NCBI GenBank assembly: GCA_902774125.1 | Contig: CACYHD010000001.1 | Span: forward strand, 2,058 to 66,057 | Origin: an uncultured Lachnospiraceae bacterium | GTDB lineage: Bacteria; Bacillota; Clostridia; Lachnospirales; Lachnospiraceae | Reading direction: 5' to 3' | Length of the DNA: 64,000 bases | Part shown: positions 32,626 to 58,961 of the stretch, piece after piece | Numbering within the stretch: position 1 is the stretch's first letter | Layout: each line of letters starts with the position of its first letter | The notes under the pieces: generated by a model | What the model was told of the DNA's origin: nothing | The model's input: the letters and a program-made list of their open reading frames with translations, nothing else | Databases searched by the model: none | Program-made: the position numbers and the translations under genes

Positions 32626-32626
32626 C

Positions 32627-37896: not shown

Positions 37897-37936
37897 AATA
37901 CACCTCATTTCTAAAACAATTGCTCGGTTACACTTA

Positions 37937-39207: not shown

Positions 39208-39256
39208 AGACGGTTTTTCTGGCTCCGTCATAACCATTTTATCACAATATGTGTAT
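39208..39256 (-). promoter_or_regulatory. CRISPR leader 2
   Basis: Homologous to leader 1 (AGACGGTTTT.CT.GCTCCGTCATAACCATTTTATCA). Confidence 0.75.
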
Positions 39257-39446
39257 TATTCAACTTTTCATAGTAATTACCGGCATCTTTTTTCGTCGAG
39301 GAATTCACAAAAACCGCCATTTTACAGCATTTTTTGTATTAGCATATCCTCGACGAAAAATTGCAATATAATTAGTGACTTCTATAACTCCACAATCTAT
39401 TTAATTGCTTTTAATTATAGATCATAAAGTATTTTATATTTCCCTA

Positions 39447-40691: not shown

Positions 40692-40692
40692 A

Positions 40693-41184: not shown

Positions 41185-41194
41185 TCACACCTCC

Positions 41195-42463: not shown

Positions 42464-44712
42464 TACTTATTCTCCTCCTTCTTAATAGCGGCTCTGTACT
42501 TAAGTGTTTCAAATATATGCATTAAATAATCATATTTAAGTTTATGCTTTGTCTCATCTTTTAGACTAGCGTATTCTTCTTTCTTCAACTCTACGTCTAT
42601 ATCTTCAATCCACACATTTGCAATTTTTCTCTTTGACTTATCCCTTATGCTATTTACACGTTTCTTGAAATTTTCTTCCTTATTAGCAACTAACTCCTTA
42701 GAATCATATTCAGATTCAAGCAGCATCAACTTCACTCTACCAATAAATGAATTAGTAGCATCTCCAACAGTTGACATCTTACTTGCATCTCTACTTGCTT
42801 TCTCGTGCAATTTTTCACTCAAGTACTTAATCCTAATCTTTTCCATAATTGCTTTAACATCTTCTGAACAACTGTTGATATTTGTATTCACTTTATTCTC
42901 AACATTGTCAGATGCAACAGCAGTGTCAACCTTATCCCTGTCTTGAACATACTTAGAATAATATGATTCAGTTGCAATCTTAAGTTGACCGTAGCCTTCT
43001 TTGTTGTCGACACCTACCCACATAGATGTAGGAACACTCACATTCTCCAGGACATTAAATACAAATGAACTTCCCGCTGTAATAGCAGGTTTTGGAGCTT
43101 TACGCATATTCCAAACACCATAGTATCCTGTCTGTTTTTTACCTGTAGCTAGAATAAGTGGTCTATTCATATCTTCACTTATCTCGGAAGCGTCATCCAC
43201 AACATCTTTAGTTTTTGCAATTTCTAAAAATGTTTTTCCAACTACCTGTTCAATTTGGTTTTTGATCATCAATGCCACTTCTTCTACATCAGTAACATAT
43301 CCTGTTTCATTTTCAAATACTGAATCTGACTCTAAAACGACAACTAGTTTGTCCTCTGTAGTAATGTCCTGATTCTCAGTCTTTATGACTTTAAATACTT
43401 TATTAGAACCATCATTTTCCAATGTACATTTGCCATACTGAGCTGACTTAGACTTACCTAATCTTATATCTTGTTCACACATCAACTTCATTATTTCTTG
43501 AATAAGATCAGCATCACCTGTTATAGTTCCCGTAAAATACTGTCCAGGGCTAAGCACTTCTGACATGTACAAAAGTCGATCCATATCAATTTGCTTTCTG
43601 CGGTTATGATACACAACTTCATATACTGGTGCATATTTCTCAACTTCAAGTTTAGCCACTTCATCATTATAAACAAGACTAATAAACTTGTCTCTCAGTG
43701 GCTTAGGATATAGATTCTTTTTATTAGGTTTTGCATTAATACGTGTTGCATAATCAGCCGGATTTTCTTCGCCAGCTTCCTTATACTGACCCATACATAA
43801 AGGTGCTGGTTTGTAAATCTTACTAGCACTATTATTAGATGGATATGCATTAGAAAAAACTACATCTCCACTTACAAATAGTTTTTCAAAAGTATCATCA
43901 ACTTTATTTTTTCTTAAATAATTACCAGCCAATGCACCTTGTATCATTTGACCTTTAATATAAGGCATTGTAGCACTATCATTCTCAGAAGAAAGAAGAA
44001 GCGGCTGTTCATTGCGCAATGTGTATCTAATTGTAACTTTACCAGCCCCATTCAAAGCTATCTCATCATTATTAGAAGCCGACTGCTTATCCTGTTCTAA
44101 TGATACTTTGACATTGCCTAGACCACGGTTTCTGTTAAGTCCCATATGTCTAACAGCTTTACATGTTTTACTCAATATTTCTTCATATGATTCGTTTTCG
44201 TCTATTCCATCCACCTTTGCAAAGAAAACTAAGTTATCCCCTTCGGCAGATGTAGGATTATACTGATTAACAACTCTGATATATCTAAGAGTATTATCCT
44301 CAGCTACACCTTCCTTGTTAATCTTTGTTTGTGCAACGATGGTAGTATACTGTTCCAAAACATCCTGTGCAGTATATTTTTCATCACTACTATCCTGCAA
44401 ATCGCGCAGTTCACGATATATAGTCTTATAGTTATCTATGTATGCATCGGAAAATCTAATTCCCTTAGTAGAATCAGCTCCACTTTCTCCGAACATCAAC
44501 TTGATACATTCATCATCCTCTTCTTTTTCAGCAGTGTTGTAAACAATCCTAGCCGCATCTCTTAGAACACCTTTGATTCGTCTCGCAGGAATATAAGGAA
44601 GTCCTACTTTGTCGTAGCAGACATCACTGTCCACTATTCCAGCATATGAATAACCTGATCCAATACATAGATTGGATTGTAATTCTATTCTTATTAAAGC
44701 CATCCTTTTCAC
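42463..44712 (-). CDS. csx10: Csx10-like Cas7-Cas5 fusion with probable C-terminal Cas11-like helical domain
   Basis: LPYIPARRIKGVLR, GLNRNRGLG, IKGQMIQGAL, LGKSKSAQYG and VGVDNKEGYG, then an all-helical tail. Confidence 0.82.
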   Translation of the reverse strand: MKRMALIRIELQSNLCIGSGYSYAGIVDSDVCYDKVGLPYIPARRIKGVLRDAARIVYNTAEKEEDDECIKLMFGESGADSTKGIRFSDAYIDNYKTIYRELRDLQDSSDEKYTAQDVLEQYTTIVAQTKINKEGVAEDNTLRYIRVVNQYNPTSAEGDNLVFFAKVDGIDENESYEEILSKTCKAVRHMGLNRNRGLGNVKVSLEQDKQSASNNDEIALNGAGKVTIRYTLRNEQPLLLSSENDSATMPYIKGQMIQGALAGNYLRKNKVDDTFEKLFVSGDVVFSNAYPSNNSASKIYKPAPLCMGQYKEAGEENPADYATRINAKPNKKNLYPKPLRDKFISLVYNDEVAKLEVEKYAPVYEVVYHNRRKQIDMDRLLYMSEVLSPGQYFTGTITGDADLIQEIMKLMCEQDIRLGKSKSAQYGKCTLENDGSNKVFKVIKTENQDITTEDKLVVVLESDSVFENETGYVTDVEEVALMIKNQIEQVVGKTFLEIAKTKDVVDDASEISEDMNRPLILATGKKQTGYYGVWNMRKAPKPAITAGSSFVFNVLENVSVPTSMWVGVDNKEGYGQLKIATESYYSKYVQDRDKVDTAVASDNVENKVNTNINSCSEDVKAIMEKIRIKYLSEKLHEKASRDASKMSTVGDATNSFIGRVKLMLLESEYDSKELVANKEENFKKRVNSIRDKSKRKIANVWIEDIDVELKKEEYASLKDETKHKLKYDYLMHIFETLKYRAAIKKEENK

Positions 44713-44715: not shown

Positions 44716-46356
44716 CTATATTTCCCTTTTATCGTCGAACCAAATATCATAAACAAGTACCATATCATATATCAATTTTTGAATCTTATCAGAACTCAAA
44801 TTCTCTATGTCGAAATAATCTTTTGGCAATTTGTGATGTGCTTTGATTCTTTCTAATTCCTTGTCAAAACTTGCCTTGCTATTAAAAGCATGCGTCAACA
44901 AGTTTTTAACATTGTTACGTCCAACTTCATTATGATTTAGTTTTTTTTGCATCTTCTTAACTACTTCGTCTGTAATACTTGCCGGCTCTTCATCTTGATC
45001 AGTGATTACCTTCCAAGGCCTTGAAGAGTTTTCTTCAAAATGTTCTTTTTCTCTTATCATATCTAATGAACTGTTAATACCGCTTTGGCAGTATTGATAA
45101 TCAATCCATGTTGTATTTTCTTTCTCATGCGCTTTTTTCTTAGCATTGTCACAGCATTCCTCTGCAATTCTATAAGCATCGGAAAAAGGTGTATGGCTAT
45201 GGAATATAGCTATTCCCGCACAAGAAGTGAACTTATTCTCATTAGTATTATTGGCAACTGCTTTAAGATAAGCTAAGCACAAATCATATGCCAATCTAGC
45301 ATTACATATGAATGTTGCTTCATCTCCTGCACCAACTATTCTTCGATATCCATACTTCCATAAATCTTTTTTATTGCCGTTATACTCGTTTGTTACGACA
45401 GGCACTCCGCCTTTAACCTCTACTCCATCAGGTGATACCTTTGTTAGATATTCATCTAATTTATCGTATCCCGCTACTACGGTTACATCATTAATAGTCT
45501 TAGAGAAACTCTGGAAGTTCTTAACTGCATTCTCCCATCTCTTGCCTTCTGCATCTTTAGCTTCACGATCAGCAACAATTGCTCCCATATTGTTTCCGTC
45601 AATGAATGCAACTGCAAGCAAACTTTCTTCACCTTTTTTATGAATATAATTATCTAATTCTTTTCCTCCCGATGTATCCATACCATTAACTTTATTCTTT
45701 TTTTCCTCATAATCAGTATACTTTTTATACTCTTTAAGTTTAGCTGATGATTCTTTAGAAACTTTGTCATCTTTAGAAGCAGATTTATTACTATTGTCCC
45801 TTTCACACAGAGGAAAAGCTGTTTTTCTGTCAACCTGAACAAAAGGTAGAACATTGCATCTATCAACTGCTATATCCATGTTTTCTACCATATTGTGTTT
45901 CTTATATAATTTCTTTCTTGTAGCATAAAAATCTTGCTTATCAAGTTCTGCCGGTACATAAGAACAAATCATATTGAGCCCATAGTAATCCTCTAGAAGT
46001 TTTTTAGAGAAAACCTTGTTGATTCTTTCGCATGTATCAGCGCAGTCGAATAGTATATTAAGGTTTCCACCTCCCTCATATACTACTATTCCCTTGTGTT
46101 CGTCTTCCTTAAACATAGCATCACTATAAACTTCGTTTGACGATTTGACTATAGAAACACCAACCGACTTAGCTGCATCCACAAGTCTTCCAGTAGGATG
46201 GCCTTCTTTCTGATCATCATGATGGTCAAAAAAACCGTTTTTGATTATTTGTGATGCTCCTATAATTTCTTTAATTCTATTAGTTCTATATATGAACTTC
46301 TGCTTAGCACGAAAATCATATAGTGCTAGAACTGGTCCTTGTATTTTATTTGACAT
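44716..46356 (-). CDS. cas10: type III-D Cas10, HD-less, with variant palm motif GAGDE
   Basis: YDFRAKQKFIY, YEGGGN, AFIDGNNMG, RIVGAGDE, CAGIAIFHSHTPF and AEECCDNAKK; start reassigned to ATG 46356. Confidence 0.9.
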   Translation of the reverse strand: MSNKIQGPVLALYDFRAKQKFIYRTNRIKEIIGASQIIKNGFFDHHDDQKEGHPTGRLVDAAKSVGVSIVKSSNEVYSDAMFKEDEHKGIVVYEGGGNLNILFDCADTCERINKVFSKKLLEDYYGLNMICSYVPAELDKQDFYATRKKLYKKHNMVENMDIAVDRCNVLPFVQVDRKTAFPLCERDNSNKSASKDDKVSKESSAKLKEYKKYTDYEEKKNKVNGMDTSGGKELDNYIHKKGEESLLAVAFIDGNNMGAIVADREAKDAEGKRWENAVKNFQSFSKTINDVTVVAGYDKLDEYLTKVSPDGVEVKGGVPVVTNEYNGNKKDLWKYGYRRIVGAGDEATFICNARLAYDLCLAYLKAVANNTNENKFTSCAGIAIFHSHTPFSDAYRIAEECCDNAKKKAHEKENTTWIDYQYCQSGINSSLDMIREKEHFEENSSRPWKVITDQDEEPASITDEVVKKMQKKLNHNEVGRNNVKNLLTHAFNSKASFDKELERIKAHHKLPKDYFDIENLSSDKIQKLIYDMVLVYDIWFDDKREI

Positions 46357-48046
46357 TTTTTCTCTCCTTGTCATAATGAATATTATTCGCATCCAATGCA
46401 AAAGCAAAAGCGCTATATTTATTAACACCGGCTGTGTCATATTTTTTATAATTAGATTCTACTTTTACATCCTTTAAAGAATAGAATTTTATATTTTCAT
46501 TTATTGCTTCTTTCAAAAGATTTCTAATACTCTGATACTCTCTCGAAAGATTTCTCTTAAATTTTTCGTTCACAATCGCTAGTTTTCCCAATAAATCCGA
46601 AGCATGATTCATACAGTTTCTCAATTCTTTTATACAAGTATAGTATTCCAGTATTCGAGCTATCTCTTCTTTATAATCAATACTATTTTGAGAATATATC
46701 AATTTATACTCTTGAGGTATATTATTACCACCATTAGTATTATTTTCTTCTGCAGTTTCGATCACTATTTTTTTACGTTGATGGCGTCTTTTCAGTATTA
46801 GTACTGCATCAATCATACTCTCCCTTTTAATGGTCTTTTTAGTATTATTTCCGCTCAGATCAATAGACTTTACTTTTTCTGTTTTTTTTCTCAGATTTAT
46901 TCCTATAGGTAAAATGGCATCATAATAACTTTTAAAATCCTTACTTATTTTTTCAATATCTTTTTCTTCATAACCCTCCTTAACATTCTTATAATCCTTT
47001 TCTTTATTTCTTAATAACTCCAACATTATATCCATTTGTGAATAATCATCAAATATTTTTTCAGTGTACAATGTCGCGGCTTGTTGTATCATTCCATTTT
47101 TTACACACCAATCCACCCAATCTAAAATGCTATTTTCATCTGAAAGAGGCATTTTATTTTCTATATTTTTAACCAGCCCCCTTACCATACTTGAAAACAA
47201 ATTGCTATCAATTTCATTTTTTTTGCACTCTTCTATACATTTTTTTATTTCTTCAATATTATTTTGGAATTCCTCCACATAAGAAATATTCATATTCTCT
47301 GAAAACTTGTTCAGACTTGATATAAGCCTACTAACATCATCACTAACATTGTCTTCTTTTTCTTTTAGTGCCATTAGTTTTACTGCACTTCCAGTTGTTA
47401 CAAATTCATCCACCGCATTTATTATGGAAAACATTGAATAAACACGATCTAATGGATGCAATATACCATCCTTATCCTGGTTGTACTCTGAATAAACACT
47501 TTTAGCACAAATCTTATTGTTATATTCAAGAAATCTGAGAATTGCTAACATCAAGAAATTTATATCTCTCATTCCGCCAGAACAATCGATATAATAATAA
47601 TCATTTTTTTCGGATAATTCCGCTATACGTCTATATATTTTCTCTATTTTTTCTTCCGTATTTTCGATTTTTTCATCAACCTCAATTTTTTTAATGACTA
47701 TTGTTTCCCCGTCTACAATAATGCTATTATCCGCAAAATCATTGGTGATTATTGGTTGCACATTTTCATATTTTTTTTCACGCAAGTATTTAGCAATATT
47801 ATTAACAAAATTCGAATAAGCGCTTTCTCCATCATCTTTTTGTTTACGAGATTCTTCAGTAACCAAACATATAATAGTATTAATATCATGTTGGTCCGCT
47901 TGAGCCTGATGAACCAAGTATTTAGTCGGTGCATCATTTGTTTGTGCACCTTTAAATTCAGTATTTGTATTTTCCACAGTATAACTTTTTGCAGCCATGC
48001 CAGGTCGATATGTGCTAATAAATGTTAACAATGTTCCGTTTTCCAT
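46346..48046 (-). CDS. csx1: Csx1/Csm6-like CARF-HEPN ribonuclease (TM1812-type)
   Basis: CARF motif YIDCSGGMRD; VDEFVTTGSA; HEPN R-x4-H motif LRNCMNHA. Confidence 0.8.
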   Translation of the reverse strand: MENGTLLTFISTYRPGMAAKSYTVENTNTEFKGAQTNDAPTKYLVHQAQADQHDINTIICLVTEESRKQKDDGESAYSNFVNNIAKYLREKKYENVQPIITNDFADNSIIVDGETIVIKKIEVDEKIENTEEKIEKIYRRIAELSEKNDYYYIDCSGGMRDINFLMLAILRFLEYNNKICAKSVYSEYNQDKDGILHPLDRVYSMFSIINAVDEFVTTGSAVKLMALKEKEDNVSDDVSRLISSLNKFSENMNISYVEEFQNNIEEIKKCIEECKKNEIDSNLFSSMVRGLVKNIENKMPLSDENSILDWVDWCVKNGMIQQAATLYTEKIFDDYSQMDIMLELLRNKEKDYKNVKEGYEEKDIEKISKDFKSYYDAILPIGINLRKKTEKVKSIDLSGNNTKKTIKRESMIDAVLILKRRHQRKKIVIETAEENNTNGGNNIPQEYKLIYSQNSIDYKEEIARILEYYTCIKELRNCMNHASDLLGKLAIVNEKFKRNLSREYQSIRNLLKEAINENIKFYSLKDVKVESNYKKYDTAGVNKYSAFAFALDANNIHYDKERKNVK

Positions 48047-48798: not shown

Positions 48799-49158
48799 TT
48801 AGTATTCTCTAAATCCCATAAACTTGAATACCGCTGTTTTGACCGTCTCTCCGTTCTCGTTGACGGTTTCTTTAGTTTCACGCACTGTGCATGAAGATAG
48901 TACTTTGATATTTCTTCTCTTTAATTCAGTCACTAAAGCAAATGTCAAACTAAAATCTCCTACACAAAGAACAGCAGCTGGTTTTTGGCTAGCTATCTTT
49001 TCCGCCTCATCCTTTGCCATCTGCTGTATATCTTCTTTAGTATCCGAAGGCGACACATTCTTAAATGGTATATCCACTACTTCCCCATATTGCAATGCCG
49101 CCTCATATTGTTCTTTTGACCATCTATCAGATGGGTGGTTTGAATAATTAATAAACAT
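48799..49158 (-). CDS. small Csx15/Csx20-like protein, candidate ring nuclease
   Basis: FINYSNHPSDRWS...GEVVDIPF...VLCVGDF...F.FMGFREY pattern typical of small type III ancillary proteins; exact family not resolved. Confidence 0.6.
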   Translation of the reverse strand: MFINYSNHPSDRWSKEQYEAALQYGEVVDIPFKNVSPSDTKEDIQQMAKDEAEKIASQKPAAVLCVGDFSLTFALVTELKRRNIKVLSSCTVRETKETVNENGETVKTAVFKFMGFREY

Positions 49159-49225
49159 AGTATCATCCCCTTTACTTGTAATATTCTAAATGTCACGTCA
49201 TTCGAAAAAAACAGATGTATATCCG

Positions 49226-50485
49226 TTAATCTTCGTATGTCATTTTTCCTAACTTTTCATTTATTGTTTTCAGAGATCTCGAATAAGAACTAGGTTTTAC
49301 ATCAATAAATTCTGCAACCTCTTTATCCGTATATTCGACTCCTTTGAGAACCATATTGTAGTATATTCCATATAAATTCTCAGTAGATTCCGGTTCAGGC
49401 TCTACAGTACTTCTAGCATAGTCGTATTTGAACATTTTTCTCATAAAGTCACTGTCATCTTGAGACATTATTGTATATATCTCTTTGTTTCCAGCAGGCT
49501 CTTTATCGTAAAATTCTTTGCCGTCGTCTGTTTTGAGTTCTTTCATTATGTTTTTAGTCGCATCTAATGCCAAAATCGCACGGTGATTAGCTCTAGTTAA
49601 ACTCAAGTATCGTTTAAATAGTTCTTCCATTCCTGCTTTAATAGTCTGTGATTTATCATTAAACAAATTATCCAGCTGTTCTTTCTGTTTTTCGTCCTCT
49701 ATGTTGTCTATCAAACTTATTTCTTCATCACCGTCAAGAGAATTAATATGATCCGAAACAACCAAAACTCCTCCTGATTTCATGTATTTTTCAACTTGTT
49801 TGAAAGTCTCTTCAGTGTGTTTTTTGTATTGAGGATCATCTCTCATTATGTCAAGAATATCCTGCTCACTAAGACATGTATATGCAACATCCCCTTTCAT
49901 ATGCTCAAGAAATTCTTCCTCAATTGGACGCATATAATTAGGCTCTTCTTTCATCCTCTCAACAGCTTCCTCTTCAGTGTAATAATTACAATTCATTGAA
50001 GCATGAAGAGATCTCGCATCACAAATCAATTTGTAGACAGTTCTACTAATTCTAATAGGCTCTTCCTTTAGATAATAATCAATCCATACATTATCGTAAA
50101 CGCTACGATAGTATGTATAGAACTTTGCACCTTTAGTACTAGAAAAATACTTTAAAGCCCTTGTTACAGCTTCAAGAGCAGCGACGTTATCATACTCTGG
50201 AAGAAATGTATTGTCAGCCATTAATGAGCCATGCTTTTTGATTCCTTTAGTTCCAATAAATTTAATAGCACTATCAATCGCTTCATCGTAATCCTGATCG
50301 TCATCGATGTCATCATAATAAATTTTAGAATCTAGTTTTGATCCATCAAGATAATACACCAACAGAAGTATCTCATCACGATACTTGTTATCTACATCTT
50401 TTTCCAAAACCTCTTTACGTTTTTCATCACTCATTTGAAATAGAGGATGATTATTTAATTGTTCTAATTTCTCTTTCCTAGTCAT
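49226..50485 (-). CDS. divergent sigma70-family factor inside the cas operon
   Basis: Region 2-like ALKYFSSTKGAKFYTYY...EEPIRISR (compare AVEKFD..KG.KFSTYA...RTIRIP); region 3.2-like SLDGDEEISLIDNIED; region 4-like YTDKEVAEFIDVKPSSYSRSLKTINEKL. Confidence 0.75.
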   Translation of the reverse strand: MTRKEKLEQLNNHPLFQMSDEKRKEVLEKDVDNKYRDEILLLVYYLDGSKLDSKIYYDDIDDDQDYDEAIDSAIKFIGTKGIKKHGSLMADNTFLPEYDNVAALEAVTRALKYFSSTKGAKFYTYYRSVYDNVWIDYYLKEEPIRISRTVYKLICDARSLHASMNCNYYTEEEAVERMKEEPNYMRPIEEEFLEHMKGDVAYTCLSEQDILDIMRDDPQYKKHTEETFKQVEKYMKSGGVLVVSDHINSLDGDEEISLIDNIEDEKQKEQLDNLFNDKSQTIKAGMEELFKRYLSLTRANHRAILALDATKNIMKELKTDDGKEFYDKEPAGNKEIYTIMSQDDSDFMRKMFKYDYARSTVEPEPESTENLYGIYYNMVLKGVEYTDKEVAEFIDVKPSSYSRSLKTINEKLGKMTYED

Positions 50486-50495
50486 TTTCCGCTCC

Positions 50496-51107
50496 CTAAT
50501 CCATCTTTAATAGTTTCTTTAAGAATTCTTCTGGTTTCTGTAGTTTCAGATCATCAAGATCCTTAATAGTTCTATTCAAAAATACTAGATTAGTAATTTC
50601 GTAAAAGAATGCTTCTCTTTCTTTTCCTTCGTTTCTCTGTACTTCGCCGTAGTAAACGCCCTGCACCTTTACGTTGCGGCGAATGTACTCTAGTGAGTCA
50701 AGTAGGTATGCCATCATCAGTGACATAACCTTAGTTCCGTATGTTATACATGCGTATACATCAGAGTCTTCTTCTATAGCGTTAAGTACCTGCATGAATA
50801 GTTTTACGCCTGTGTCGTATTCTTGATTTTCTGGAACAGCGACATCCACTATCTGCTCTGGCTTAATGCCAAGCTCTGCTGCTTCATCGTAAAACATCTT
50901 TAAGTTAGTATCAGAATCATCATTTTTAAATCTTACTGTAATAACTTGTGTCTCGATTTCATCTTCCTGATATCTTTTGATTACAGGAATAATAGGAAAT
51001 CTTGTTTCCATGTTTGTGTCAAAATCTACTCCCTGAGTTCTCTTGTATACTTGAGGATTCAATTTCCCTCCCATCATAGGAATAACTGTAATAAATACAT
51101 TTTTCAT
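50496..51107 (-). CDS. stand-alone CARF-domain protein (TM1812-like), no effector domain
   Basis: VFITVIP N-terminal strand; VYACITYGTKVMS (compare DxTHG/DITYG); GVYYGE; 203 aa, no HEPN motif. Confidence 0.7.
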   Translation of the reverse strand: MKNVFITVIPMMGGKLNPQVYKRTQGVDFDTNMETRFPIIPVIKRYQEDEIETQVITVRFKNDDSDTNLKMFYDEAAELGIKPEQIVDVAVPENQEYDTGVKLFMQVLNAIEEDSDVYACITYGTKVMSLMMAYLLDSLEYIRRNVKVQGVYYGEVQRNEGKEREAFFYEITNLVFLNRTIKDLDDLKLQKPEEFLKKLLKMD

Positions 51108-51279: not shown

Positions 51280-51308
51280 ATTATAGCCCTTCCCGCTTCT
51301 TTTCACAA
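51280..51308 (-). promoter_or_regulatory. possible sigmaA promoter for the CARF-sigma-cas operon
   Basis: TTGTGA-17-TATAAT on the minus strand. Confidence 0.45.
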
Positions 51309-51357: not shown

Positions 51358-53658
51358 TTATTCTACCTTGACTGTTAGTGTTGAAGGGTCTGATTCTAGC
51401 AAGTTGCCGTCATCTTCTGCGTCTTCTAATGAGCCTGTCACCTCAACCACTATTACATCGCCTACGTACACTTCTGATACTTCGAAATGGATTGCTCCGT
51501 CATCTGCTGGGTATGCTCTCTCTACCGGCTTGTCGCCGTTAATGCTGTATTTTACTGTATACATTTCTGGATCCAAGCCCTCTGAAGCTTCGTCTGGATT
51601 GATATCGAATTCAACTGTCTTTTTGGCCTTCTTCCACTGTGCATACATGCAAACTACTGCGCCATCTTTTTCGGCTAGATTCTTCACTGTGTCACCTGAA
51701 TTGTATACGTTCTCTGCATCATCCTCGTCCAAACTCCATCCTATGAACTTGTAACCGTCCCTTGTTGGAACCTCTTCTGTTAGTTTTGCTTCCTGGTCAT
51801 ATACACATTCAGTGTCCGCGATAGTGAAGGCGTTGCCACCGTTTTTCTTATACTGAATCTTGTAGTTGTTAGCTTCGTACTCAAGTTCTAGCTGGATAGT
51901 TCCGTTGGCCTTGGATAGCTTGCTAGCTGTAGTGTTGGCCTTAAAAACTGTGTCCGGCGCACTGTCGCCTGTGAACTTGTAACCGCTGATATGGTATCCC
52001 ACCTTGGCAAACTTCTCGTCGTCAGGATATGGCTGGAACTTAACCTCGTCGCTTACTGCAAGCTTATAGTCATCGCCGTCCTGGTATTCGCTCTTTTTCT
52101 TGCCATCAACAGTCAATAATTCAAAACCAAGTCCTTTGATAGTATATTTCTTGTCTCTTGTGACAGGCTTTACGATGTATACATACACATTGTTATTTAG
52201 AGGGAAAGATTTAATAGAGTCACCAGTTAGTGACTGTTGTGTCGTTTTAAATGCCATATTGTCAACAGTTAACACAACCACACCTACTAGTTCTTTATCA
52301 TCAGGTATTTTGAAAGAGTCTATTAAGTCAATTTTACTGTTACCAGCTACGTCTTTTTTACCATTCTCTGTCTCTACTCTAGTCTTTGCAGCCTTGACCT
52401 TAATTGCATCTCCGAACACACTATTTTCATATAAATACTCATACACATTGTAGTTATCAATCTCTATGTTACCTTTTTCTCTTTTAGGATTATCGCTGTC
52501 CTTTATAGGATTATCATTAAACGAAGTCTCATCCATTTCTCCCATCTCTTTTCCTTTCAAAACAACCTTAGAAATATTATTTCCTTCAAATGCATAGTAT
52601 CCAACCGATGGTTTATTTCCCGCTAGAACAACCTCTACCAACTCATTGTTTCCAAAAGAACAATCATCAATTTCTACATTATCACCACTTATAGTTACTT
52701 TTTTAATATTATTTCCCCAAAATGCTTCCTCACCAATTTTCTTAACACTTGCAGGTATATTTATATCAGTTATATTATTCTCATAAAATGCGACTGAACT
52801 TATTTCTTTTACCGCATTCCCCAATTTCACAGTTTTAATAGCGTTATTACTGAAGCAAAATCCTCCTATCTTCTTTACTCCATTAGGAATAATTACTGTT
52901 CCTGCTATATTATTATTTTCAAATGCGCCACTACCAAGTTTAGCTAAAGACTGTGGAAAACTAACACTTTTTAAATTGCACTCCATAAAGGCGCTTTCTT
53001 CTATGTTCTTCAAATTAGCGCACTGAGACAAGTTAACGCTTCCCAAACTGTCATTTTCAGAAAATGCGCACACTCCAATCTTTTCAATAGACTTAGGAAG
53101 ATTAATGCTCTTTAAATTATTATTAGAAAATGCCCCCCATTCATACTCTTCATCCTCAGATGGTCCATTACATATCTTTTTCAACTTGCTATCTGCCGGA
53201 AACTCTACGCTAGTTAGACAACATTCTGAGAAGGCTGAACCACCTATTTCTGTAACATTCTTAGGGATTACAACTTTAGATACATATTTGTAAAAAGCTT
53301 CTGAGTGAGCATCCTTTTTCTTATTCTTTCTAGCCTCCTTACACTGCTTGCACTCGCATTCGTAGTTCTGATCATTAAGAATCTTAGTTACATTGTAGCT
53401 TTTCTTGTCGATCTTAACTGTGTTAGGATAGCTAATAGTTTTGTCCGCTTTAGTAATTTTCTGAGTACGAACACGTAGTCCAACAGAGTTAGTATCCTTG
53501 TAGTAATAGTAATGCCACTTATCGTTGTCACATGTTCCACTTATATTCTTAGGGCCTGCCGCCTTTACCTCCTTCGCGCCTAGATGCAATCCGCCTAATA
53601 ATGTTGATACTGCCAAAACACTTGCTACAACCATTGAAATAACTTTTTTCATTTTCAT
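51358..53658 (-). CDS. secreted BspA-type leucine-rich-repeat surface protein with InlB B-repeat-like domain
   Basis: Signal peptide; repeats IP..VT.IG..AF..N.L..V; PTRDGYKFIGWS. Confidence 0.85.
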   Translation of the reverse strand: MKMKKVISMVVASVLAVSTLLGGLHLGAKEVKAAGPKNISGTCDNDKWHYYYYKDTNSVGLRVRTQKITKADKTISYPNTVKIDKKSYNVTKILNDQNYECECKQCKEARKNKKKDAHSEAFYKYVSKVVIPKNVTEIGGSAFSECCLTSVEFPADSKLKKICNGPSEDEEYEWGAFSNNNLKSINLPKSIEKIGVCAFSENDSLGSVNLSQCANLKNIEESAFMECNLKSVSFPQSLAKLGSGAFENNNIAGTVIIPNGVKKIGGFCFSNNAIKTVKLGNAVKEISSVAFYENNITDINIPASVKKIGEEAFWGNNIKKVTISGDNVEIDDCSFGNNELVEVVLAGNKPSVGYYAFEGNNISKVVLKGKEMGEMDETSFNDNPIKDSDNPKREKGNIEIDNYNVYEYLYENSVFGDAIKVKAAKTRVETENGKKDVAGNSKIDLIDSFKIPDDKELVGVVVLTVDNMAFKTTQQSLTGDSIKSFPLNNNVYVYIVKPVTRDKKYTIKGLGFELLTVDGKKKSEYQDGDDYKLAVSDEVKFQPYPDDEKFAKVGYHISGYKFTGDSAPDTVFKANTTASKLSKANGTIQLELEYEANNYKIQYKKNGGNAFTIADTECVYDQEAKLTEEVPTRDGYKFIGWSLDEDDAENVYNSGDTVKNLAEKDGAVVCMYAQWKKAKKTVEFDINPDEASEGLDPEMYTVKYSINGDKPVERAYPADDGAIHFEVSEVYVGDVIVVEVTGSLEDAEDDGNLLESDPSTLTVKVE

Positions 53659-53698
53659 AATAAAACTCCTTTCAGACTCGTTTATTGTTCTCTATTTA

Positions 53699-53729
53699 TA
53701 TATACTGTCATTTCACAAGGGAATTAACA
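53699..53729 (-). promoter_or_regulatory. bipartite motif copy 3
   Basis: TATATACTGTC-N12-AATTAACA; 40 nt upstream of ATG 53658. Confidence 0.75.
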
Positions 53730-53836: not shown

Positions 53837-54913
53837 CTACATCTCCATCACCATGCAGTTTCCAGCATCCTCGATTCCGCTGTCATCGCGCATCTCCTTA
53901 GGTCTCACATAGATAATCTTCGCGTACTGCTGGTTGATTCCATTGCACATGATATACTCGGCCACAGTTTTCTCGTCGCTGTCTGCGTAAGTTTCCAGAA
54001 CAGTTTTGACCTCGTTGTCATAGTCGTCGATTGAAGAGATATGCTTCTCAGGCGCAACGGCATTCTTCTGAGTATCCATTCTGTAGATCGTGTGGCCTAG
54101 ATTCTCTTCAAGTAGCAGTCTGGACACGTCGAACACTCTTCCGATAATGCGATTGTTAGTCTCCTTATCCTCGTGTGGCGCGTAGTCGCAAACTATCATT
54201 ATTGAATTATCGTTAGGGGTATCCAGCTCTTTGACTAGTAGCTTGTCATCTGTTGCGGCCGAAAGATTCCAGTGAATATTCTTAATGTTGTCGCCCATTC
54301 GATACTCCCTAATTTGAAGAATCTCAGACACGTCATTGCCCACAACATGCTTGTAAGTTAGCTCGTCGCCCTCTGAAACCGTGTCCTCAAGTTCCGCGAT
54401 ATATGTCTCGCTCTCGTTAGGATAAATGTACGCGCAACCCTCAACGTTAACCTTCTTAGTTCTGTATGTTATATCGAACCAGTCGTAAATCTTGCACTCC
54501 TCAACCTTGATGTCAATTCGTCCACAGTACTTGCACTTAAGAGGAACCCTAATAGGCTTAACCTTTCTAGACTGTCTTCCGCGAATAGATATGTCGAACT
54601 TCACGCTCTCACTGCTGCCAAAAACAGCGTTGTCGCACTTGATACTGTTCTCGACGTGGTTAGCAGGGAAGATGCATCTATTGATTGGTGTGATCTGGAT
54701 GTAGCTTTTACCTGTCTCGTTGTCATAAACTATCTCGTACTTTATCTTTACGCTTTTGCACACAATCTGGTTGATCAAAACAACTAGACCTAATGCCCCT
54801 ACTGTGAATAGAAGCGCCCAAAGAGTAAGCTTAACGTTTGTTTTGACAAAAATAACTCCAAGTAATAAAACAATTCCTGCATAACCGATTCTGTTCTTCA
54901 TTTCATTCACCAT
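53837..54913 (-). CDS. DUF58-family protein
   Basis: N-terminal TM helices; QIREYRMGDNIKNIHWNLSA...LLVKE; MoxR operon context. Confidence 0.85.
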   Translation of the reverse strand: MVNEMKNRIGYAGIVLLLGVIFVKTNVKLTLWALLFTVGALGLVVLINQIVCKSVKIKYEIVYDNETGKSYIQITPINRCIFPANHVENSIKCDNAVFGSSESVKFDISIRGRQSRKVKPIRVPLKCKYCGRIDIKVEECKIYDWFDITYRTKKVNVEGCAYIYPNESETYIAELEDTVSEGDELTYKHVVGNDVSEILQIREYRMGDNIKNIHWNLSAATDDKLLVKELDTPNDNSIMIVCDYAPHEDKETNNRIIGRVFDVSRLLLEENLGHTIYRMDTQKNAVAPEKHISSIDDYDNEVKTVLETYADSDEKTVAEYIMCNGINQQYAKIIYVRPKEMRDDSGIEDAGNCMVMEM

Positions 54914-54926
54914 TTCCTTTCATTAA

Positions 54927-57212
54927 TTATCTTAAGCCTTTCCAGACAACCATCTTGATTTTGGTACCAAGCTTGGCCTCTTTCCATCTTTCATCTGTCA
55001 CAGTTTCCATAGTCTCAATCATCAAGTCGGCGTCTCTTTCCTGTATCTCATAGCGGCTGAACTTAATCTTCTCTAGTAGTTCGTAAACTTCCTCGCTCAC
55101 CATATCCTTAAGCTCTACGCCTGTAGCCTCGCACATATCGTAGATGTACTTAGACGCTGCACCCACTCTAATGTCTAGGTTCTCGCTGTCTAAGCGATTG
55201 TTGCGGATGCGCTTGATAACTAGTCTTCTAATAGCGAGAGCTATAATAGCCAAAACTATCAAAACACCTATAACTATTCCAATCATTATTAAGATTTCTA
55301 TCAATCTCTGGTTGTAACTCTTGCGTTCCTTGCTTCTAGATGATCCACCTGAGCCACCGCCGCCTACCTGAGGCTCTGTGCTCTTAAGTGAACTTCCGCC
55401 ACCCTGGTCATCTTCCTTGTAAAAGCCAGGTGTAACCTCGACTGGTGTGAAACCAAGTCCTGCAATATATATCTCAACCCAGGCATGTGCCTTGTCGTTT
55501 TTAATCTTTACTTCAGTGCTCTTAACTTCGTTAGCTGCATAGTAGCCTTCCACATATCTCGCTGGAATCCCATAATATCTAAACATCAATGTCGCAACTG
55601 TCGCGAAGTGTGGAGAGAAGCCTCTCTTGTCCTTAAGAAGAATCTGCTCAAGGTAGTTGCCGTCAGGATTGTACTCTGCACATTTTTTGCTGTACTTGAT
55701 ATGCCCCTTCAAGTAACTTCTTACTGTTGATATCGCATCATCTATATTGTTGCTGCATGCTGGGATGTTTTGTTCTAGAATCGCTTTTTCATCGGCTGGA
55801 ACATCCCTGTACGCCTTAGTGTTTACGAACTTGCGATACTCAGTCTCGACAGTGGCGAACTGCTGCTGATTAGATGTCTTAAACTCCTGATTCTCATACC
55901 ACTGTGCCTGAGATAACTTGATGTAATCACCATCACTAATCGCCTTAGTAGTAAATGTGTACTCGCTCACCTTTCCCATAAAAGAACATCTGAAGTTCAC
56001 GTCGTTCTTAGAATCAACCAGTCCGTTAAGATTATCAAGCGTTTCTGTAACGTACTGGTACTTCTGTGACGCACTCACATTGTTGATATGAATAGTATTC
56101 TGCTGAATCTCATTCTCATCGATTTCCTTGGCCTCCCAAGTACAACTTGTAAAGAAAGCATTCTGTGTCAAAGGATATATTCTGTTTTGGTAAAAGAAAT
56201 CCATAATGCCTGTTGGATAAACATTCTCGTCGTTGTCGCTCCACCCCTTCTCAGTGTACTTGCAACCCACATAGCCCTTAAGATGTAACTCGCAACCCTC
56301 TTCCATCTTCACGTTAAGTCTGACCTCATTATCCTTGGCAGGATACTCGTGAAATCTCTTGAACGCGCCCTCAGGATAGTCGCTCTTGCCGTAATAAATG
56401 TTCTCAAGTCTGTATGACACCTCATCTCTTAGATCATCGATGCTAGTCAAACCTTCATATCTAGCCCAAGTCAAAAACGCTGCTGAACAAGCTAGAAGCA
56501 CACCAAGAATCACCCATACAACCTTTGCGTTCCTGCTACCCTTAGTCATCTTGATATTAGATAGATATAGAACAGCAAAAATTGAAAGAAGTGCTGCAAC
56601 AACGTAGGCTACCTTGCCCTCACCCTTGAACCAGATGTTGGCCATGGTTGACATAATTAGCAGAGCACTTATAATGTAAGTTCTTCTGAAGTACAATAAA
56701 AAAGCCACAACCGCTGTGACTATAAATGTAATCGCGCAGTACGCTAAGACGATATCTATGTTCATACTCTTAAGGTTTTCAACATATGCGATATGGTTTT
56801 CTGCCATGTTTTTGTTGATGGTTCTGATAACGCTGTTCACGATTCCCATCATTCCGTTCTCTGTAAATAGTACAAGCGCTAAAGTAGGAACAACGATTTC
56901 AAGTAATGTTATAGACATTACCTTAGTAAATGACGCGCTACGCTTAGTCAAAAGTTTGAATAGAAAAGCTGACAAAAACGCTGCAAACACACTCGCATAC
57001 GCAATTAAGGAAATTCCAAGGAAGTGATTAGCGATATTAAGTATTCCGAATCCCTCACCAAAACCAAGTGTCATAACGATTGCACATATTGAAGTTAGAA
57101 GCACGAACATAGGGATGTTGCTCATAGATTTAGCCTCAACTGAAGAAAGGTCTACTGATACATCGCTTGTCTTTTTCACTCTCTGAATGTTTTCTCTTCT
57201 TAGTTTTTTCAT
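54927..57212 (-). CDS. membrane transglutaminase-like domain protein
   Basis: Multiple TM helices; RGFSPHFAT...GIPARYVEGY...HAWVEIY. Confidence 0.85.
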   Translation of the reverse strand: MKKLRRENIQRVKKTSDVSVDLSSVEAKSMSNIPMFVLLTSICAIVMTLGFGEGFGILNIANHFLGISLIAYASVFAAFLSAFLFKLLTKRSASFTKVMSITLLEIVVPTLALVLFTENGMMGIVNSVIRTINKNMAENHIAYVENLKSMNIDIVLAYCAITFIVTAVVAFLLYFRRTYIISALLIMSTMANIWFKGEGKVAYVVAALLSIFAVLYLSNIKMTKGSRNAKVVWVILGVLLACSAAFLTWARYEGLTSIDDLRDEVSYRLENIYYGKSDYPEGAFKRFHEYPAKDNEVRLNVKMEEGCELHLKGYVGCKYTEKGWSDNDENVYPTGIMDFFYQNRIYPLTQNAFFTSCTWEAKEIDENEIQQNTIHINNVSASQKYQYVTETLDNLNGLVDSKNDVNFRCSFMGKVSEYTFTTKAISDGDYIKLSQAQWYENQEFKTSNQQQFATVETEYRKFVNTKAYRDVPADEKAILEQNIPACSNNIDDAISTVRSYLKGHIKYSKKCAEYNPDGNYLEQILLKDKRGFSPHFATVATLMFRYYGIPARYVEGYYAANEVKSTEVKIKNDKAHAWVEIYIAGLGFTPVEVTPGFYKEDDQGGGSSLKSTEPQVGGGGSGGSSRSKERKSYNQRLIEILIMIGIVIGVLIVLAIIALAIRRLVIKRIRNNRLDSENLDIRVGAASKYIYDMCEATGVELKDMVSEEVYELLEKIKFSRYEIQERDADLMIETMETVTDERWKEAKLGTKIKMVVWKGLR

Positions 57213-57250
57213 AACGTTACCTCCTTGGTTTTTCTATCATTTTATTACGA

Positions 57251-57850
57251 TTAGTCGGCGTCCTTGATGTTGTATGAGATCACAGGTTTCTTAACTGCCT
57301 TAACTACGTCGCCCACCTGGTCACTGTCGCCGTTCTCTCTGCCTTCATTACCATCTACTGCGTTACCACTGTTGCCGTTTCCTGCACCGTTGCCGTCACG
57401 TCCCTGCTCGCCAAAACCGCCGTCACCATTACCACTGTTGCCTTTACCCTTACCAGTCTTACCCTTGCGGCCATGTGACTTAGTGTCATTTCCTCGTCTC
57501 TCGCCCTGCTGCTTCTGTTCTGGCATATCCTGCTTTTCCATATTGTTCTTATTCTGCTCGGCTTTCTCAGGCTGCTCTATGTTAGGCATAGTCTGATCCT
57601 GCTTTACAGTCTCTTCATCCTGGCGCTGTTCCTGCTTAGTCTGCTCCTGATTCTGCTCTTCCTTCTTCTTATTAGCATTGTCACCATTTCCATCGTTACG
57701 GTTACCCGTCTTCTTCTTAAGGGACTTAGCCTGCTTTTCGAACTTGAAGGTTGGAGCCTCATACTTGGCCTCTTGCTTTTTGCATCCTGTTAATACTACT
57801 GAACCGATAATCATCATTGCCAAAAACATAATTCCAAATAACTTTTTCAT
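57251..57850 (-). CDS. low-complexity lipoprotein (Gln/Glu-rich and Gly/Asn-rich)
   Basis: Lipobox LTGC; GNGDGG/GNGAGNGNSG segments. Confidence 0.65.
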   Translation of the reverse strand: MKKLFGIMFLAMMIIGSVVLTGCKKQEAKYEAPTFKFEKQAKSLKKKTGNRNDGNGDNANKKKEEQNQEQTKQEQRQDEETVKQDQTMPNIEQPEKAEQNKNNMEKQDMPEQKQQGERRGNDTKSHGRKGKTGKGKGNSGNGDGGFGEQGRDGNGAGNGNSGNAVDGNEGRENGDSDQVGDVVKAVKKPVISYNIKDAD

Positions 57851-57921
57851 CTCTCTTACCTCCTAAAATTCAAAAATGTATTGTTGTTCAAATTAGTTAT
57901 TTATACTAGATTGGTGCGGCA

Positions 57922-58920: not shown

Positions 58921-58961
58921 AATAAACTCCTTTCGAATCATCAATTATTTACTCACACTAA

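What the first reader, a model, noticed from the sequence alone, without database searches (positions are those of the whole stretch)
48799..51107. Type III-D operon headed by a stand-alone CARF and a divergent sigma70 factor: candidate cOA-controlled transcription system
CARF (203 aa), sigma-like (419 aa), Csx15/20-like, cas6, csx1 and cas10 are co-directional with gaps of 10, 67, 18 and 2 nt and an 11-nt overlap. The 419-aa protein has recognisable sigma regions 2, 3.2 and 4. Having region 3 makes it unlike the ECF-type sigmas of CalpL-CalpT-CalpS and type III-E, and no protease or anti-sigma pair of those kinds is in the operon. Model (inference): Cas10-made cOA binds the effector-less CARF, which gates the sigma; the sigma drives the 31-nt motif promoters for surface, membrane and MoxR genes; the small Csx protein resets the signal. 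I know of no description of this arrangement.
Basis: partly seen in the sequence, partly recalled or inferred. Interest (0 to 1): 0.92.

Follow-up and report, generated by a model that had tools for sequence, protein, structure and literature searches.

The report
CARF sensor–sigma factor pair in CRISPR
A type III-D CRISPR operon starts with a small signal-sensor protein (CARF) coupled to its own divergent sigma factor, and a promoter motif found only around this locus suggests a protease-free route, not found in the literature searched, from the CRISPR alarm molecule to switching on nearby envelope and membrane genes.

Summary
On the minus strand lie CARF (203 aa), a sigma-like protein (419 aa), Csx20, Cas6, Csx1, Cas10d and four RAMP/Csx19 genes, with exactly the stated gaps, followed by two CRISPR arrays.

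The 203-aa protein is a true CARF: AF2 pLDDT 91.8, the top 36 Foldseek PDB hits are all CARF proteins, and PADLOC 'CARF2--CARF' gives E 1e-51.

The 419-aa protein belongs to a rare family of 34 representatives among 1.8 billion proteins. Its profile matches housekeeping sigma factors from region 2 through region 3.2 (SigA in PDB E 2e-6; hhalign 96%). Region 4 could not be shown.

CARF sits directly upstream of the sigma in all 24 loci examined. In 14 of 21 informative loci the pair lies inside a type III locus. Five genomes carry the pair but no detectable Cas10.

A TTAATT-17-TATATATAAGTG motif occurs five times in the 1.9-Mb genome, all flanking this locus and each 30-45 nt upstream of a start codon. 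Relatives keep the -10 box but change the -35 box.

Best reading (0.55): a cOA-gated CARF-sigma switch with a private local regulon. The gating is inferred. It is a new variant of the CalpL/Craspase theme, and I found no description of it.

The parts
51280..51308 (-). sigmaA-type promoter candidate (TTGTGA-17-TATAAT) upstream of the CARF gene
   Evidence: The same arrangement (TTGTGG-17-TATAAT) is present upstream of CARF in relative L001. The private motif is absent here.
50496..51107 (-). stand-alone CARF protein, 203 aa (CARF2 clade, CARF-only architecture)
   Evidence: AF2 pLDDT 91.8. The top 36 Foldseek PDB hits are all CARF proteins: Csx1-Crn2 8y6z E 1.6e-8, then Csx1, Csm6, Csa3, Can2, Crn1. 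PADLOC PDLC01822 E 1.1e-51. 22 of 23 homologues hit TIGR02221. Conserved ITYGTK motif.
49226..50485 (-). divergent sigma70-family protein, 419 aa, with regions 2 to 3.2 plus a C-terminal HTH
   Evidence: The family profile hits SigA 7ckq_F at E 2.4e-6 and about 50 other SigA/RpoD/HrdB/RpoS chains. hhalign against ordinary sigmas gives 96.2%, E 2.2e-9. There are weak NCBIfam hits to the III-E sigma, ECF, RpoD, SigI, SigB/F/G and FliA models. Region 4 is not significant.
48799..49158 (-). Csx20 (ring-nuclease family)
   Evidence: Csx20 was shown to degrade cA4 in PMC12409355.
48049..48780 (-). Cas6
46346..48046 (-). Csx1-type CARF-HEPN effector, 566 aa (RNCMNH motif)
   Evidence: PADLOC Csx1/Csm6 E 3e-38; sequence.
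44716..46356 (-). Cas10d without an HD domain; palm motifs FIDGNNMG and GAGDE
   Evidence: PADLOC Cas10d E 1e-87. The acidic pair (GDD or GDE) is conserved in 9 related Cas10 proteins.
39447..44712 (-). Type III-D backbone: Csx10-type fused RAMP, Csx7-like double RAMP, Csx19, TIGR03986 RAMP
38674..39268 (-). CRISPR array 1 (9 repeats ending in ATTGAAAC on the minus strand) with a conserved 60-nt leader
   Evidence: D1, D2, D4
37230..37572 (-). CRISPR array 2 (5 repeats) with a copy of the same leader
59066..59096 (-). private promoter motif copy 1 (GTTAATTC-N13-CAGTATATAT), upstream of moxR
58961..58991 (-). private promoter motif copy 2, about 40 nt upstream of the moxR ATG (58920)
53837..58920 (-). 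MoxR AAA+ ATPase, 199-aa low-complexity lipoprotein, membrane transglutaminase-like protein and DUF58: the predicted main target operon
   Evidence: Pfam hits. Synteny with the CARF-sigma pair in L001, L003, L005, L026 and L037.
53698..53728 (-). private promoter motif copy 3, upstream of the LRR surface-protein gene
   Evidence: The homologous position is kept in L001.
51358..53658 (-). BspA-type LRR / Listeria-Bacteroides-repeat secreted surface protein, 766 aa. No terminator was detected between it and the CARF gene.
37936..37966 (-). private promoter motif copy 4, upstream of a small one-TM protein
37684..37908 (-). small predicted membrane protein (about 70-74 aa)
   Evidence: no family hit
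36812..36842 (-). private promoter motif copy 5, upstream of a multi-TM protein
36280..36765 (-). 161-aa multi-pass membrane protein with an acidic tail
   Evidence: no family hit

Best explanation
The first two genes of this type III-D operon form a conserved two-gene regulatory module: a stand-alone CARF sensor and a divergent, non-ECF sigma70-family factor.

Proposed mechanism, step by step:
1. The operon is transcribed from an ordinary sigmaA-type promoter. This rests on a sequence match only.
2. When the crRNA-guided complex binds target RNA, Cas10d makes cyclic oligoadenylate, most likely cA4. This is inferred from the conserved palm motifs and from the presence of a Csx1 effector and a Csx20 ring nuclease.
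3. The CARF dimer binds the signal and changes its hold on the sigma. Either it releases the sigma, acting as an anti-sigma, or it licenses it. This step is inferred.
4. The sigma directs RNA polymerase to five private promoters of the form TTAATT-17-TATATATAAGTG. That these are promoters is inferred from geometry, exclusivity and comparative co-variation. They precede the moxR-lipoprotein-transglutaminase-DUF58 operon, an LRR surface protein and two small membrane proteins.
5. Csx20 degrades cA4 and resets the switch. This is a family-level inference.

The output is a local transcriptional response of envelope and membrane genes, running in parallel to Csx1 RNase activity and needing no protease.
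For: CARF fold and family:
- AF2 pLDDT 91.8.
- The top 36 Foldseek hits are all CARF proteins.
- PADLOC CARF2--CARF E 1e-51.
- The canonical ligand-loop motif ITYGTK is almost invariant.

Sigma homology:
- Family profile against PDB: SigA E 2.4e-6, aligned from region 2.1 to the 3.2 acidic loop.
- hhalign 96.2%, E 2.2e-9, reaching the start of region 4.1.
- Several members independently hit different sigma models.

Pairing:
- CARF lies directly upstream of the sigma in all 24 loci examined, often overlapping or within 30 nt.
- The CARF and sigma distance matrices correlate: Mantel r 0.85, exceeded by 0 of 2000 permutations.

Link to type III:
- 14 of 21 informative loci have Cas10 or type III-D genes beside the pair, placed either before Cas10 or after the last RAMP.

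Regulon:
- The motif has 5 copies against 0.12 expected.
- In a genome-wide PWM scan these 5 sites score 52-56 bits and the next best site scores 15.
- Each copy lies 30-45 nt before an RBS and ATG.
- It is conserved upstream of the moxR and LRR genes in L001.
- The clade whose sigma is only about 24% identical keeps the -10 box TATATATAA(A/G)TG at the same positions but has a different -35 box.
- A third clade (L035) has TTAATT-17-TA(C/T)ATAT.A.TG just downstream of its pair, in front of an HTH gene and a secreted Big_2/CAP protein.

Signalling context:
- The Cas10 palm motifs are conserved.
- Csx20 is a cA4 ring nuclease (PMC12409355).
Against: - No experiment or structure shows cOA binding, a CARF-sigma contact or RNAP binding.
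- The AF2 model of the sigma failed (pLDDT 37).
- Region 4 is not detectable. Only a generic C-terminal HTH is seen.
- Seven of 21 informative pairs have no cas gene within 7-10 kb. Five of those genomes (Ruthenibacterium, three Allofournierella, Pygmaiobacter MAGs) have no PF22335 Cas10 match anywhere. These are MAGs and may be incomplete.
- In the closest clade the pair is tied to the MoxR operon in every locus where the upstream flank is held. It is followed by CRISPR in window, L001 and L005, and by other genes in L003 and L026.
- The PWM was trained on the sites it scores highest.
- Two of the five motif copies lie in a segmental duplication, so they are not independent.
- A Mantel correlation is expected for any two co-inherited neighbouring genes.
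Confidence: 0.55

Rival explanations
1. The sigma factor is a dedicated regulator of the neighbouring MoxR/transglutaminase/LRR and membrane genes, but it is controlled by something other than cOA. The stand-alone CARF is a ring nuclease or cOA sponge that only tunes the Csx1 response. On this view the two genes are neighbours, not partners.
For: Stand-alone CARF proteins such as Crn1 (Sso2081) are ring nucleases and appear among the fold matches. The MoxR operon travels with the pair even where no cas10 follows.
Against: The operon already has a Csx20 ring nuclease. CARF stays glued upstream of the sigma in all 24 loci, including those with no Cas10 and no Csx1 to tune. That is hard to explain for a pure ring nuclease.
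Confidence: 0.18
2. The CARF-sigma pair is a portable sensor-regulator that responds to a ligand not made by Cas10, such as another nucleotide messenger or a metabolite. Its frequent position in type III-D loci would then reflect clustering in defence islands or co-mobility.
For: Five genomes carry the pair but have no detectable Cas10. Loci L003 and L042 place the pair next to kinase, vWA, PP2C, Sel1 or HD-GYP genes instead of cas genes.
Against: 14 of 21 informative pairs lie inside type III operons. They are often translationally coupled to cas10 or to the last RAMP gene and appear at two different insertion points. The fold and motifs match cA4-binding CARF proteins. The genomes without Cas10 are MAGs.
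Confidence: 0.15
3. The 419-aa protein is not a working sigma factor. It may be a sigma-derived DNA-binding regulator or an RNAP decoy. The motif would then be a sigmaA promoter carrying an operator for some other regulator.
For: Region 4 cannot be aligned. The tryptophan pair of region 2.3 is not kept (sequence). TTAATT-17-TATATA is a weak match to the sigmaA consensus. The AF2 model failed.
Against: Homology runs through regions 2.1-2.4, 3 and the 3.2 finger, which are the parts that bind core RNAP. The -35 box changes with the sigma clade while the -10 box stays the same. The motif occurs only at this locus.
Confidence: 0.1

Closest known systems
CalpL-CalpT-CalpS (type III SAVED-Lon protease, anti-sigma factor, ECF-like sigma)
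   Same: A type III CRISPR accessory that converts the cA4 signal into a sigma-factor-driven transcriptional response. The sigma is encoded in the cas locus.
   Different: This locus has no SAVED domain, no Lon protease and no CalpT-like anti-sigma. The sensor is a 203-aa CARF-only protein. The sigma has region 3/3.2, so it is not ECF, and it is about twice the size.
Type III-E Craspase (gRAMP-TPR-CHAT) with Csx30-Csx31-RpoE
   Same: A CRISPR-associated sigma factor. The best single NCBIfam hit of the 419-aa protein is the III-E sigma model (E 1e-5, far below its cut-off).
   Different: The type III-E system works by target-RNA-activated proteolysis of Csx30 without cOA. Here there is a cyclase-type Cas10d, a CARF sensor and no CHAT protease.
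Csa3 (CARF fused to a winged HTH), a cA4-responsive transcription factor
   Same: A CARF sensor coupled directly to transcription without a protease. Csa3 is among the fold matches (6wxq).
   Different: Csa3 is a single polypeptide and a classical DNA-binding regulator of cas and CRISPR genes. Here the sensor and the output are two proteins, the output is a sigma factor, and the predicted targets are non-cas envelope and membrane genes.
Stand-alone CARF ring nucleases (Crn1/Sso2081, Csx20)
   Same: Small CARF-only proteins encoded in type III loci; same fold.
   Different: This family is invariably paired with a sigma-like gene and also persists in loci that lack cas genes. Ring-nuclease activity has not been tested.
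DdvS-DdvA of Myxococcus xanthus (ECF sigma and transmembrane anti-sigma controlling a CBASS/type III-B island; PMC11506125)
   Same: A dedicated sigma factor with a private regulon in a defence island.
   Different: DdvS acts upstream of the defence genes and is gated by a membrane anti-sigma. Here the sigma is predicted to act downstream of CRISPR signalling and to be gated by a cytoplasmic CARF.

Membership tests
CARF superfamily (CARF2 clade, CARF-only) | Rossmann-like CARF fold | tested here: met
   AF2 pLDDT 91.8. The top 36 Foldseek PDB hits are all CARF proteins, TMq up to 0.67.
CARF superfamily (CARF2 clade, CARF-only) | Profile membership and conserved ligand-loop motifs | tested here: met
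   PADLOC PDLC01822 E 1.1e-51 over the full length. TIGR02221 is hit by 22 of 23 homologues. The ITYGTK and RFPIIPVI motifs are conserved.
CARF superfamily (CARF2 clade, CARF-only) | Binding of a cyclic oligoadenylate | not testable with these tools
   Needs a binding assay.
sigma70 family | Region 2 (core binding, -10 recognition) | tested here: met
   hmmsearch of the family profile against PDB: SigA E 2.4e-6. hhalign 96.2%. The F-x-T-Y of region 2.3 is kept; the WW pair is not.
sigma70 family | Region 3 and the 3.2 linker | tested here: met
   The alignments run through '[21 protein letters not shown]' of SigA.
sigma70 family | Region 4 (-35 recognition HTH) | tested here: inconclusive
   hhalign stops at the start of region 4.1. 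The C-terminal sub-profile gives no significant match. Only weak generic HTH hits fall at one constant position; Sigma70_r4 scores E 0.21 in one member.
sigma70 family | Binds core RNAP and initiates at specific promoters | not testable with these tools
   The only support is indirect: a private promoter-like motif whose -35 box co-varies with the sigma clade.
ECF (group 4) sigma factors | Only regions 2 and 4, no region 3, about 170-200 aa | tested here: not met
   The protein has 419 aa with region 3/3.2 aligned to SigA. The ECF and III-E sigma models are hit only below their cut-offs.
Calp system (CalpL-CalpT-CalpS) | SAVED-Lon protease and a cleavable anti-sigma next to the sigma | tested here: not met
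   No SAVED, Lon or CalpT-like protein is present in the operon. The only nearby protease is a soluble FtsH-like AAA-M41 protein 13 kb away.
Type III-D CRISPR-Cas | Cas10d lacking HD, Csx10, Csx19, multiple RAMPs, Cas6, array | tested here: met
Crn1-type ring nuclease | cA4 cleavage by the CARF dimer | not testable with these tools
   Fold similarity to Sso2081 exists (E 1.6e-3) but ranks below the Csx1 and Csm6 CARF domains.

The most novel reading that the evidence does not exclude
A stand-alone CARF protein acts as a direct, protease-free, cOA-controlled anti-sigma or sigma licensing factor for a new sigma70 subfamily. The module is portable: it plugs into type III-D operons at either end and also occurs without CRISPR. 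It switches on a private, readable regulon of envelope-remodelling, surface and small membrane proteins. This would be a third, mechanistically distinct CRISPR-to-transcription pathway whose targets can be predicted from sequence.
Probability: 0.45. Interest if true: 0.9.

Novelty: new variant of a known kind. Interest (0 to 1): 0.8.

Why it matters
Two routes from type III CRISPR detection to a sigma factor are known: CalpL-CalpT-CalpS and Craspase-Csx30-RpoE. Both need a protease. To my knowledge their target genes are largely unknown; I did not check this in the literature here.

In this module a sensor and a sigma appear to be coupled directly. The target promoters can be read from the genome: five sites, all local. 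They point to a concrete output consisting of a MoxR-DUF58-transglutaminase envelope module, an LRR surface protein and small membrane proteins.

That makes the question 'what does a CRISPR-triggered transcriptional response actually switch on?' directly testable. It also gives a function to a catalogued but unexplained class of CARF-only proteins, and it defines a new sigma subfamily with its promoter.

The copies in genomes without Cas10 raise a further question: which signal feeds the CARF in those genomes?

Tried and rejected
- AF2 of the sigma with a 2-sequence alignment failed (pLDDT 37), so there is no fold evidence for the sigma.
- Single-sequence PDB searches of both proteins found nothing. 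The CARF profile also found no CARF in PDB by sequence; only the fold search did.
- Word-index homologue searches for the sigma returned only 2-3 proteins. The exhaustive HMMER scan was needed.
- The search for related loci with the sigma alignments failed because no conserved stretch was available.
- The first motif search used the wrong spacer and found nothing.
- hhalign of the N- and C-terminal sub-profiles against ordinary sigmas was not significant.
- Partners of the most distant CARF clade (138, 278 and 330 aa; L029, L028, L006) hit no family. Some relatives of these give weak sigma-profile hits (L046, L050, L052).
- No private motif could be found in L025, L027, L031, L033 or L036.
- Literature searches for CARF plus sigma or anti-sigma found only Calp, Craspase, Csa3 and DdvS. 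One query was too broad to be useful.
- Makarova et al. 2020 is not held in the library, so I cannot exclude that it mentions this neighbourhood.
- I rejected an ECF assignment because region 3 is present.
- I rejected autoregulation through the private motif because no copy lies upstream of the CARF gene. Read-through from the LRR gene remains possible, since no terminator was detected.
Full report
**1. The observation**

All genes of interest lie on the minus strand:

| Gene | Coordinates | Length |
|---|---|---|
| CARF-like | 50496-51107 | 203 aa |
| sigma-like | 49226-50485 | 419 aa |
| Csx20 | 48799-49158 | 119 aa |
| Cas6 | 48049-48780 | 243 aa |
| Csx1 | 46346-48046 | 566 aa |
| Cas10 | 44716-46356 | 546 aa |

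Downstream follow a Csx10-type fused RAMP, a Csx7-like double RAMP, Csx19 and a TIGR03986 RAMP. Two CRISPR arrays of 9 and 5 repeats come next. Each has a conserved 60-nt leader, and the repeats end in ATTGAAAC on the minus strand.

PADLOC profiles give Cas10d E 1e-87, Csx1/Csm6 E 3e-38 and Csx20 E 4.5e-33. Csx1 carries an RNCMNH (R-x4-H) motif. The locus is therefore a complete type III-D system whose Cas10 lacks an HD domain.

**2. The 203-aa protein is a true CARF**

- Library hits on the single sequence were below cut-off: TIGR02221 E 1e-7 and PF23400 E 8e-4.
- 22 of 23 homologues hit TIGR02221.
- PADLOC's 'CARF2--CARF' profile matches over the full length at E 1.1e-51.
- An AF2 model built on 23 homologues has pLDDT 91.8.
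- Its 36 best Foldseek matches in PDB are all CARF proteins: Marinitoga Csx1-Crn2 E 1.6e-8 with TMq 0.63-0.67, then Csx1, Csm6, Csa3, Can2 and Crn1/Sso2081.
- The family conserves RFPIIPVI and YAC-ITYGTK. The second corresponds to the CARF ligand-loop motif (own knowledge).

The family is already catalogued as CARF-only. Its function is not known.

**3. The 419-aa protein is a divergent sigma70-family member**

On its own it hits only sub-threshold models: III-E sigma E 1e-5, ECF E 5e-5 and Sigma70_r2 E 0.035.

It is rare. The word-index search found one homologue among 5.8 billion proteins. An exhaustive HMMER scan of 1.84 billion representatives found 34.

A 33-member alignment (A2) gave stronger evidence:
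- Its profile matches B. subtilis SigA (7ckq_F) at E 2.4e-6, plus about 50 other SigA, RpoD, HrdB and RpoS chains. The match runs from region 2.1 to the acidic 3.2 loop.
- hhalign against 13 ordinary sigma factors from the same order gives 96.2%, E 2.2e-9, and ends at the start of region 4.1.
- Individual members weakly hit RpoD, SigI, SigB/F/G and FliA models.

Regions 2 and 3/3.2 are thus supported, and the architecture is not ECF.

Region 4 is not demonstrated. The C-terminal sub-profile finds nothing significant. Only weak, generic HTH hits fall at one constant position near the C-terminus.

**4. The pair is a conserved module**

Contexts came from encoding contigs, whole genomes and a scan of species-representative genomes.

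In all 24 distinct loci that hold a sigma-family gene, a CARF of this family lies immediately upstream. The distance ranges from a 4-nt overlap to a gap of about 55 nt. One locus (L026) has a small zinc-ribbon ORF inserted between them.

Hosts named in the records are mostly gut and rumen Clostridia: Eubacterium, Lachnospiraceae, Enterocloster, Ruthenibacterium, Allofournierella, Pygmaiobacter. Single Solobacterium, Synergistales and Oxalobacter records also occur.

The CARF and sigma distance matrices correlate (Mantel r 0.85, exceeded in 0 of 2000 permutations). The sigma evolves faster, with mean identity 21% against 34% for the CARF. This shows co-inheritance, not contact.

Within the window's own order, only 2 of 401 genomes carry a full-length family member.

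**5. Association with type III**

| Category | Count | Loci |
|---|---|---|
| Cas10/type III-D genes beside the pair | 14 | window, L001, L005, L025, L031, L033, L035, L036, L039, L040, L044, L046, L050, L052 |
| No cas gene within 7-10 kb | 7 | L003, L026, L041, L042, L043, L045, L047 |
| Contig too short to tell | 3 | L027, L037, L038 |

Where type III genes are present, the pair sits either directly before cas10 or after the last RAMP.

The five named genomes among the seven loci without cas genes have no PF22335 (Cas10 palm) match anywhere. They are MAGs, so absence is not proven.

The link is nonetheless not obligatory.

In the clade closest to the window, the moxR-lipoprotein-transglutaminase-DUF58 operon (usually with an LRR gene) precedes the pair in all six loci whose upstream flank is held: window, L001, L003, L005, L026 and L037. 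What follows the pair varies. It is CRISPR-Cas in window, L001 and L005. In L003 it is a kinase, vWA, PP2C, Sel1 and RadC. In L026 it is genes with no family match. The L037 contig ends at the sigma.

**6. A private promoter motif**

GTTAATTC-N13-CAGTATATAT occurs five times in the window against 0.12 expected by chance. Read as hexamers it is TTAATT-17-TATATA, extended to TATATATAAGTG.

In the 1.9-Mb genome (93% complete), a pattern search with up to 2 mismatches adds only one weak sixth match. A PWM scan scores the five sites at 52-56 bits and the next best site at 15 bits. The PWM was trained on these sites, so the informative result is that nothing else scores highly.

Each copy lies 30-45 nt upstream of an RBS and ATG:
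- two tandem copies before moxR;
- one before the LRR surface protein;
- one before a roughly 70-aa one-TM protein;
- one before a 161-aa multi-TM protein.

The last two copies lie in a duplicated leader-array-JAB cassette and are not independent.

No copy precedes the CARF gene. That gene has a sigmaA-like TTGTGA-17-TATAAT, which is conserved in L001.

Comparative evidence:
- L001 (sigma 63% identical) keeps the motif before moxR and the LRR gene.
- Clade B (L003, L005, L026; sigma about 24% identical, CARF about 60%) keeps the -10 box TATATATAA(A/G)TG. It lies at the same positions before moxR and LRR, and additionally before the transglutaminase and RadC genes. Its -35 box is different: TCTACATTT against TGTTAATTC.
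- L035 (sigma 22-28% identical, depending on the alignment used; the pair lies at the 3' end of a III-D operon with no MoxR cluster) has two copies of TTAATT-17-TA(C/T)ATAT.A.TG just downstream of the pair. They precede an HTH gene and a secreted Big_2/CAP protein.

A constant -10 box with a clade-specific -35 box, always next to the sigma gene, is what a dedicated sigma-promoter pair would produce. No such motif was found in five other loci with short flanks.

**7. Signalling context**

The Cas10 palm motifs (hIDGN.MG and xGDD/xGDE) are conserved in nine related loci. The window's GAGDE shares its GDE form with L001, L005 and L033.

Csx20 family proteins degrade cA4 (PMC12409355). Csx1 is a standard cA4-type effector (own knowledge). 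cA4 is therefore the most likely signal. This is an inference.

**8. Mechanism and rivals**

The best-supported reading is a cOA-gated CARF-sigma switch with a local regulon of envelope and membrane genes, acting in parallel with Csx1 and reset by Csx20.

Shown by computation:
- the folds and families of both proteins;
- the pairing;
- enrichment in type III loci;
- promoter-like geometry, exclusivity and co-variation of the motif.

Inferred:
- cOA binding;
- gating of the sigma by the CARF (release or licensing);
- RNAP binding;
- promoter use.

Rivals:
- the CARF is only a ring nuclease, and the sigma is regulated otherwise;
- the module senses a ligand not made by CRISPR, which the genomes without Cas10 support;
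- the protein is not a working sigma.

**9. Comparison and novelty**

The closest known systems are CalpL-CalpT-CalpS, Craspase-Csx30-RpoE, Csa3, DdvS-DdvA and the stand-alone CARF ring nucleases. None has a CARF-only protein paired with a sigma that contains region 3.

Full-text searches found no description of such a pair. Makarova et al. 2020 could not be read.

Two earlier AI notes of this scan report similar CARF-sigma pairs in other genomes. They agree with this reading, but I did not test them.

I rate this a new variant of a known kind: CRISPR signalling to a sigma factor, by a different and simpler architecture, with a readable regulon.

Noticed in passing
L041, L042, L043, L045, L047 (Ruthenibacterium, three Allofournierella, Pygmaiobacter MAGs): These genomes carry the CARF-sigma pair with no cas genes within 7-10 kb and no Cas10 palm match anywhere in the genome. 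In L042 the neighbours are a 1144-aa kinase-like protein, a Sel1/TM protein, a lipoprotein, a secreted 458-aa protein and a 1010-aa protein that looked HD-GYP-like by eye (no family scan was run).
   Followed up: partly
L003 9021-15918 (and L004): Downstream of the CARF-sigma pair, in place of CRISPR-Cas, lie a 927-aa protein-kinase-like protein, a vWA protein, a PP2C phosphatase, a Sel1 protein and RadC. The clade-B promoter motif also precedes the RadC gene (position 15454).
   Followed up: partly
L003 7133-7310, L005 7826-8010, L026 5385-5575: The leader upstream of the CARF gene in clade B is conserved. It has an extended -10-like TAGTACAAT/TAGTATAAT followed by a hairpin and a T-run (AGTCCTTT..AAGGGACTTTTTGT). 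This may be a transcription attenuator in front of the CARF-sigma pair.
   Followed up: no
window 49226-50485, residues ~165-235: The window's sigma and its 63% relative carry an internal duplication of a helix pair in region 3 (EEAVERMKEEPNYMRPIEEEFLEHMK / QDILDIMRDDPQYKKHTEETFKQVEKYMK). All other family members lack it (alignment A2).
   Followed up: partly
window 36800-39270: A leader-array-(RadC/JAB)-promoter-motif cassette is duplicated. The two arrays have repeats that differ at several positions but keep the ATTGAAAC handle. An intact RadC-like JAB gene (37995-38645) follows array 1.
   Followed up: partly
window 34825-36138: A soluble FtsH-like protein (AAA plus peptidase M41, with HEAGH, no TM segment) that has PADLOC IetA-type AAA hits (E 3e-20). 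It lies just downstream of the sigma-motif-driven membrane-protein gene and could be co-transcribed with it.
   Followed up: no
window 29742-34752: A cluster of a tandem HicB-like protein, an XRE regulator, a membrane J-domain protein, an AAA ATPase and two calcineurin-like phosphoesterases lies next to the CRISPR island. It may be another defence or stress module.
   Followed up: no
L029/L030 6366-7434; L028 990-2517; L006 8001-9642: The distant branch of the CARF family (26-32% identity) is also coupled to an overlapping downstream gene, but of 138, 278 or 330 aa with no family hit. L029 is a type III-A locus next to cas1-cas2. Related partners in L046, L050 and L052 give weak sigma-profile hits (E 5e-6 to 8e-4).
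   Followed up: partly
L056, L057, L058 (G410-G412): The CARF-only gene has no detectable sigma partner here. PF22335 matches in open frames of 401-408 aa lie on the same contig as the CARF gene in G410 and G411, and on another contig in G412. These may be short Cas10 or mCpol-like cyclases.
   Followed up: no
window 44716-46356: Cas10 has GAGDE where most Cas10 proteins have GGDD. Related loci carry AGDE, AGDD, EGDD or DGDD, so the first glycine is generally lost in this III-D lineage.
   Followed up: partly
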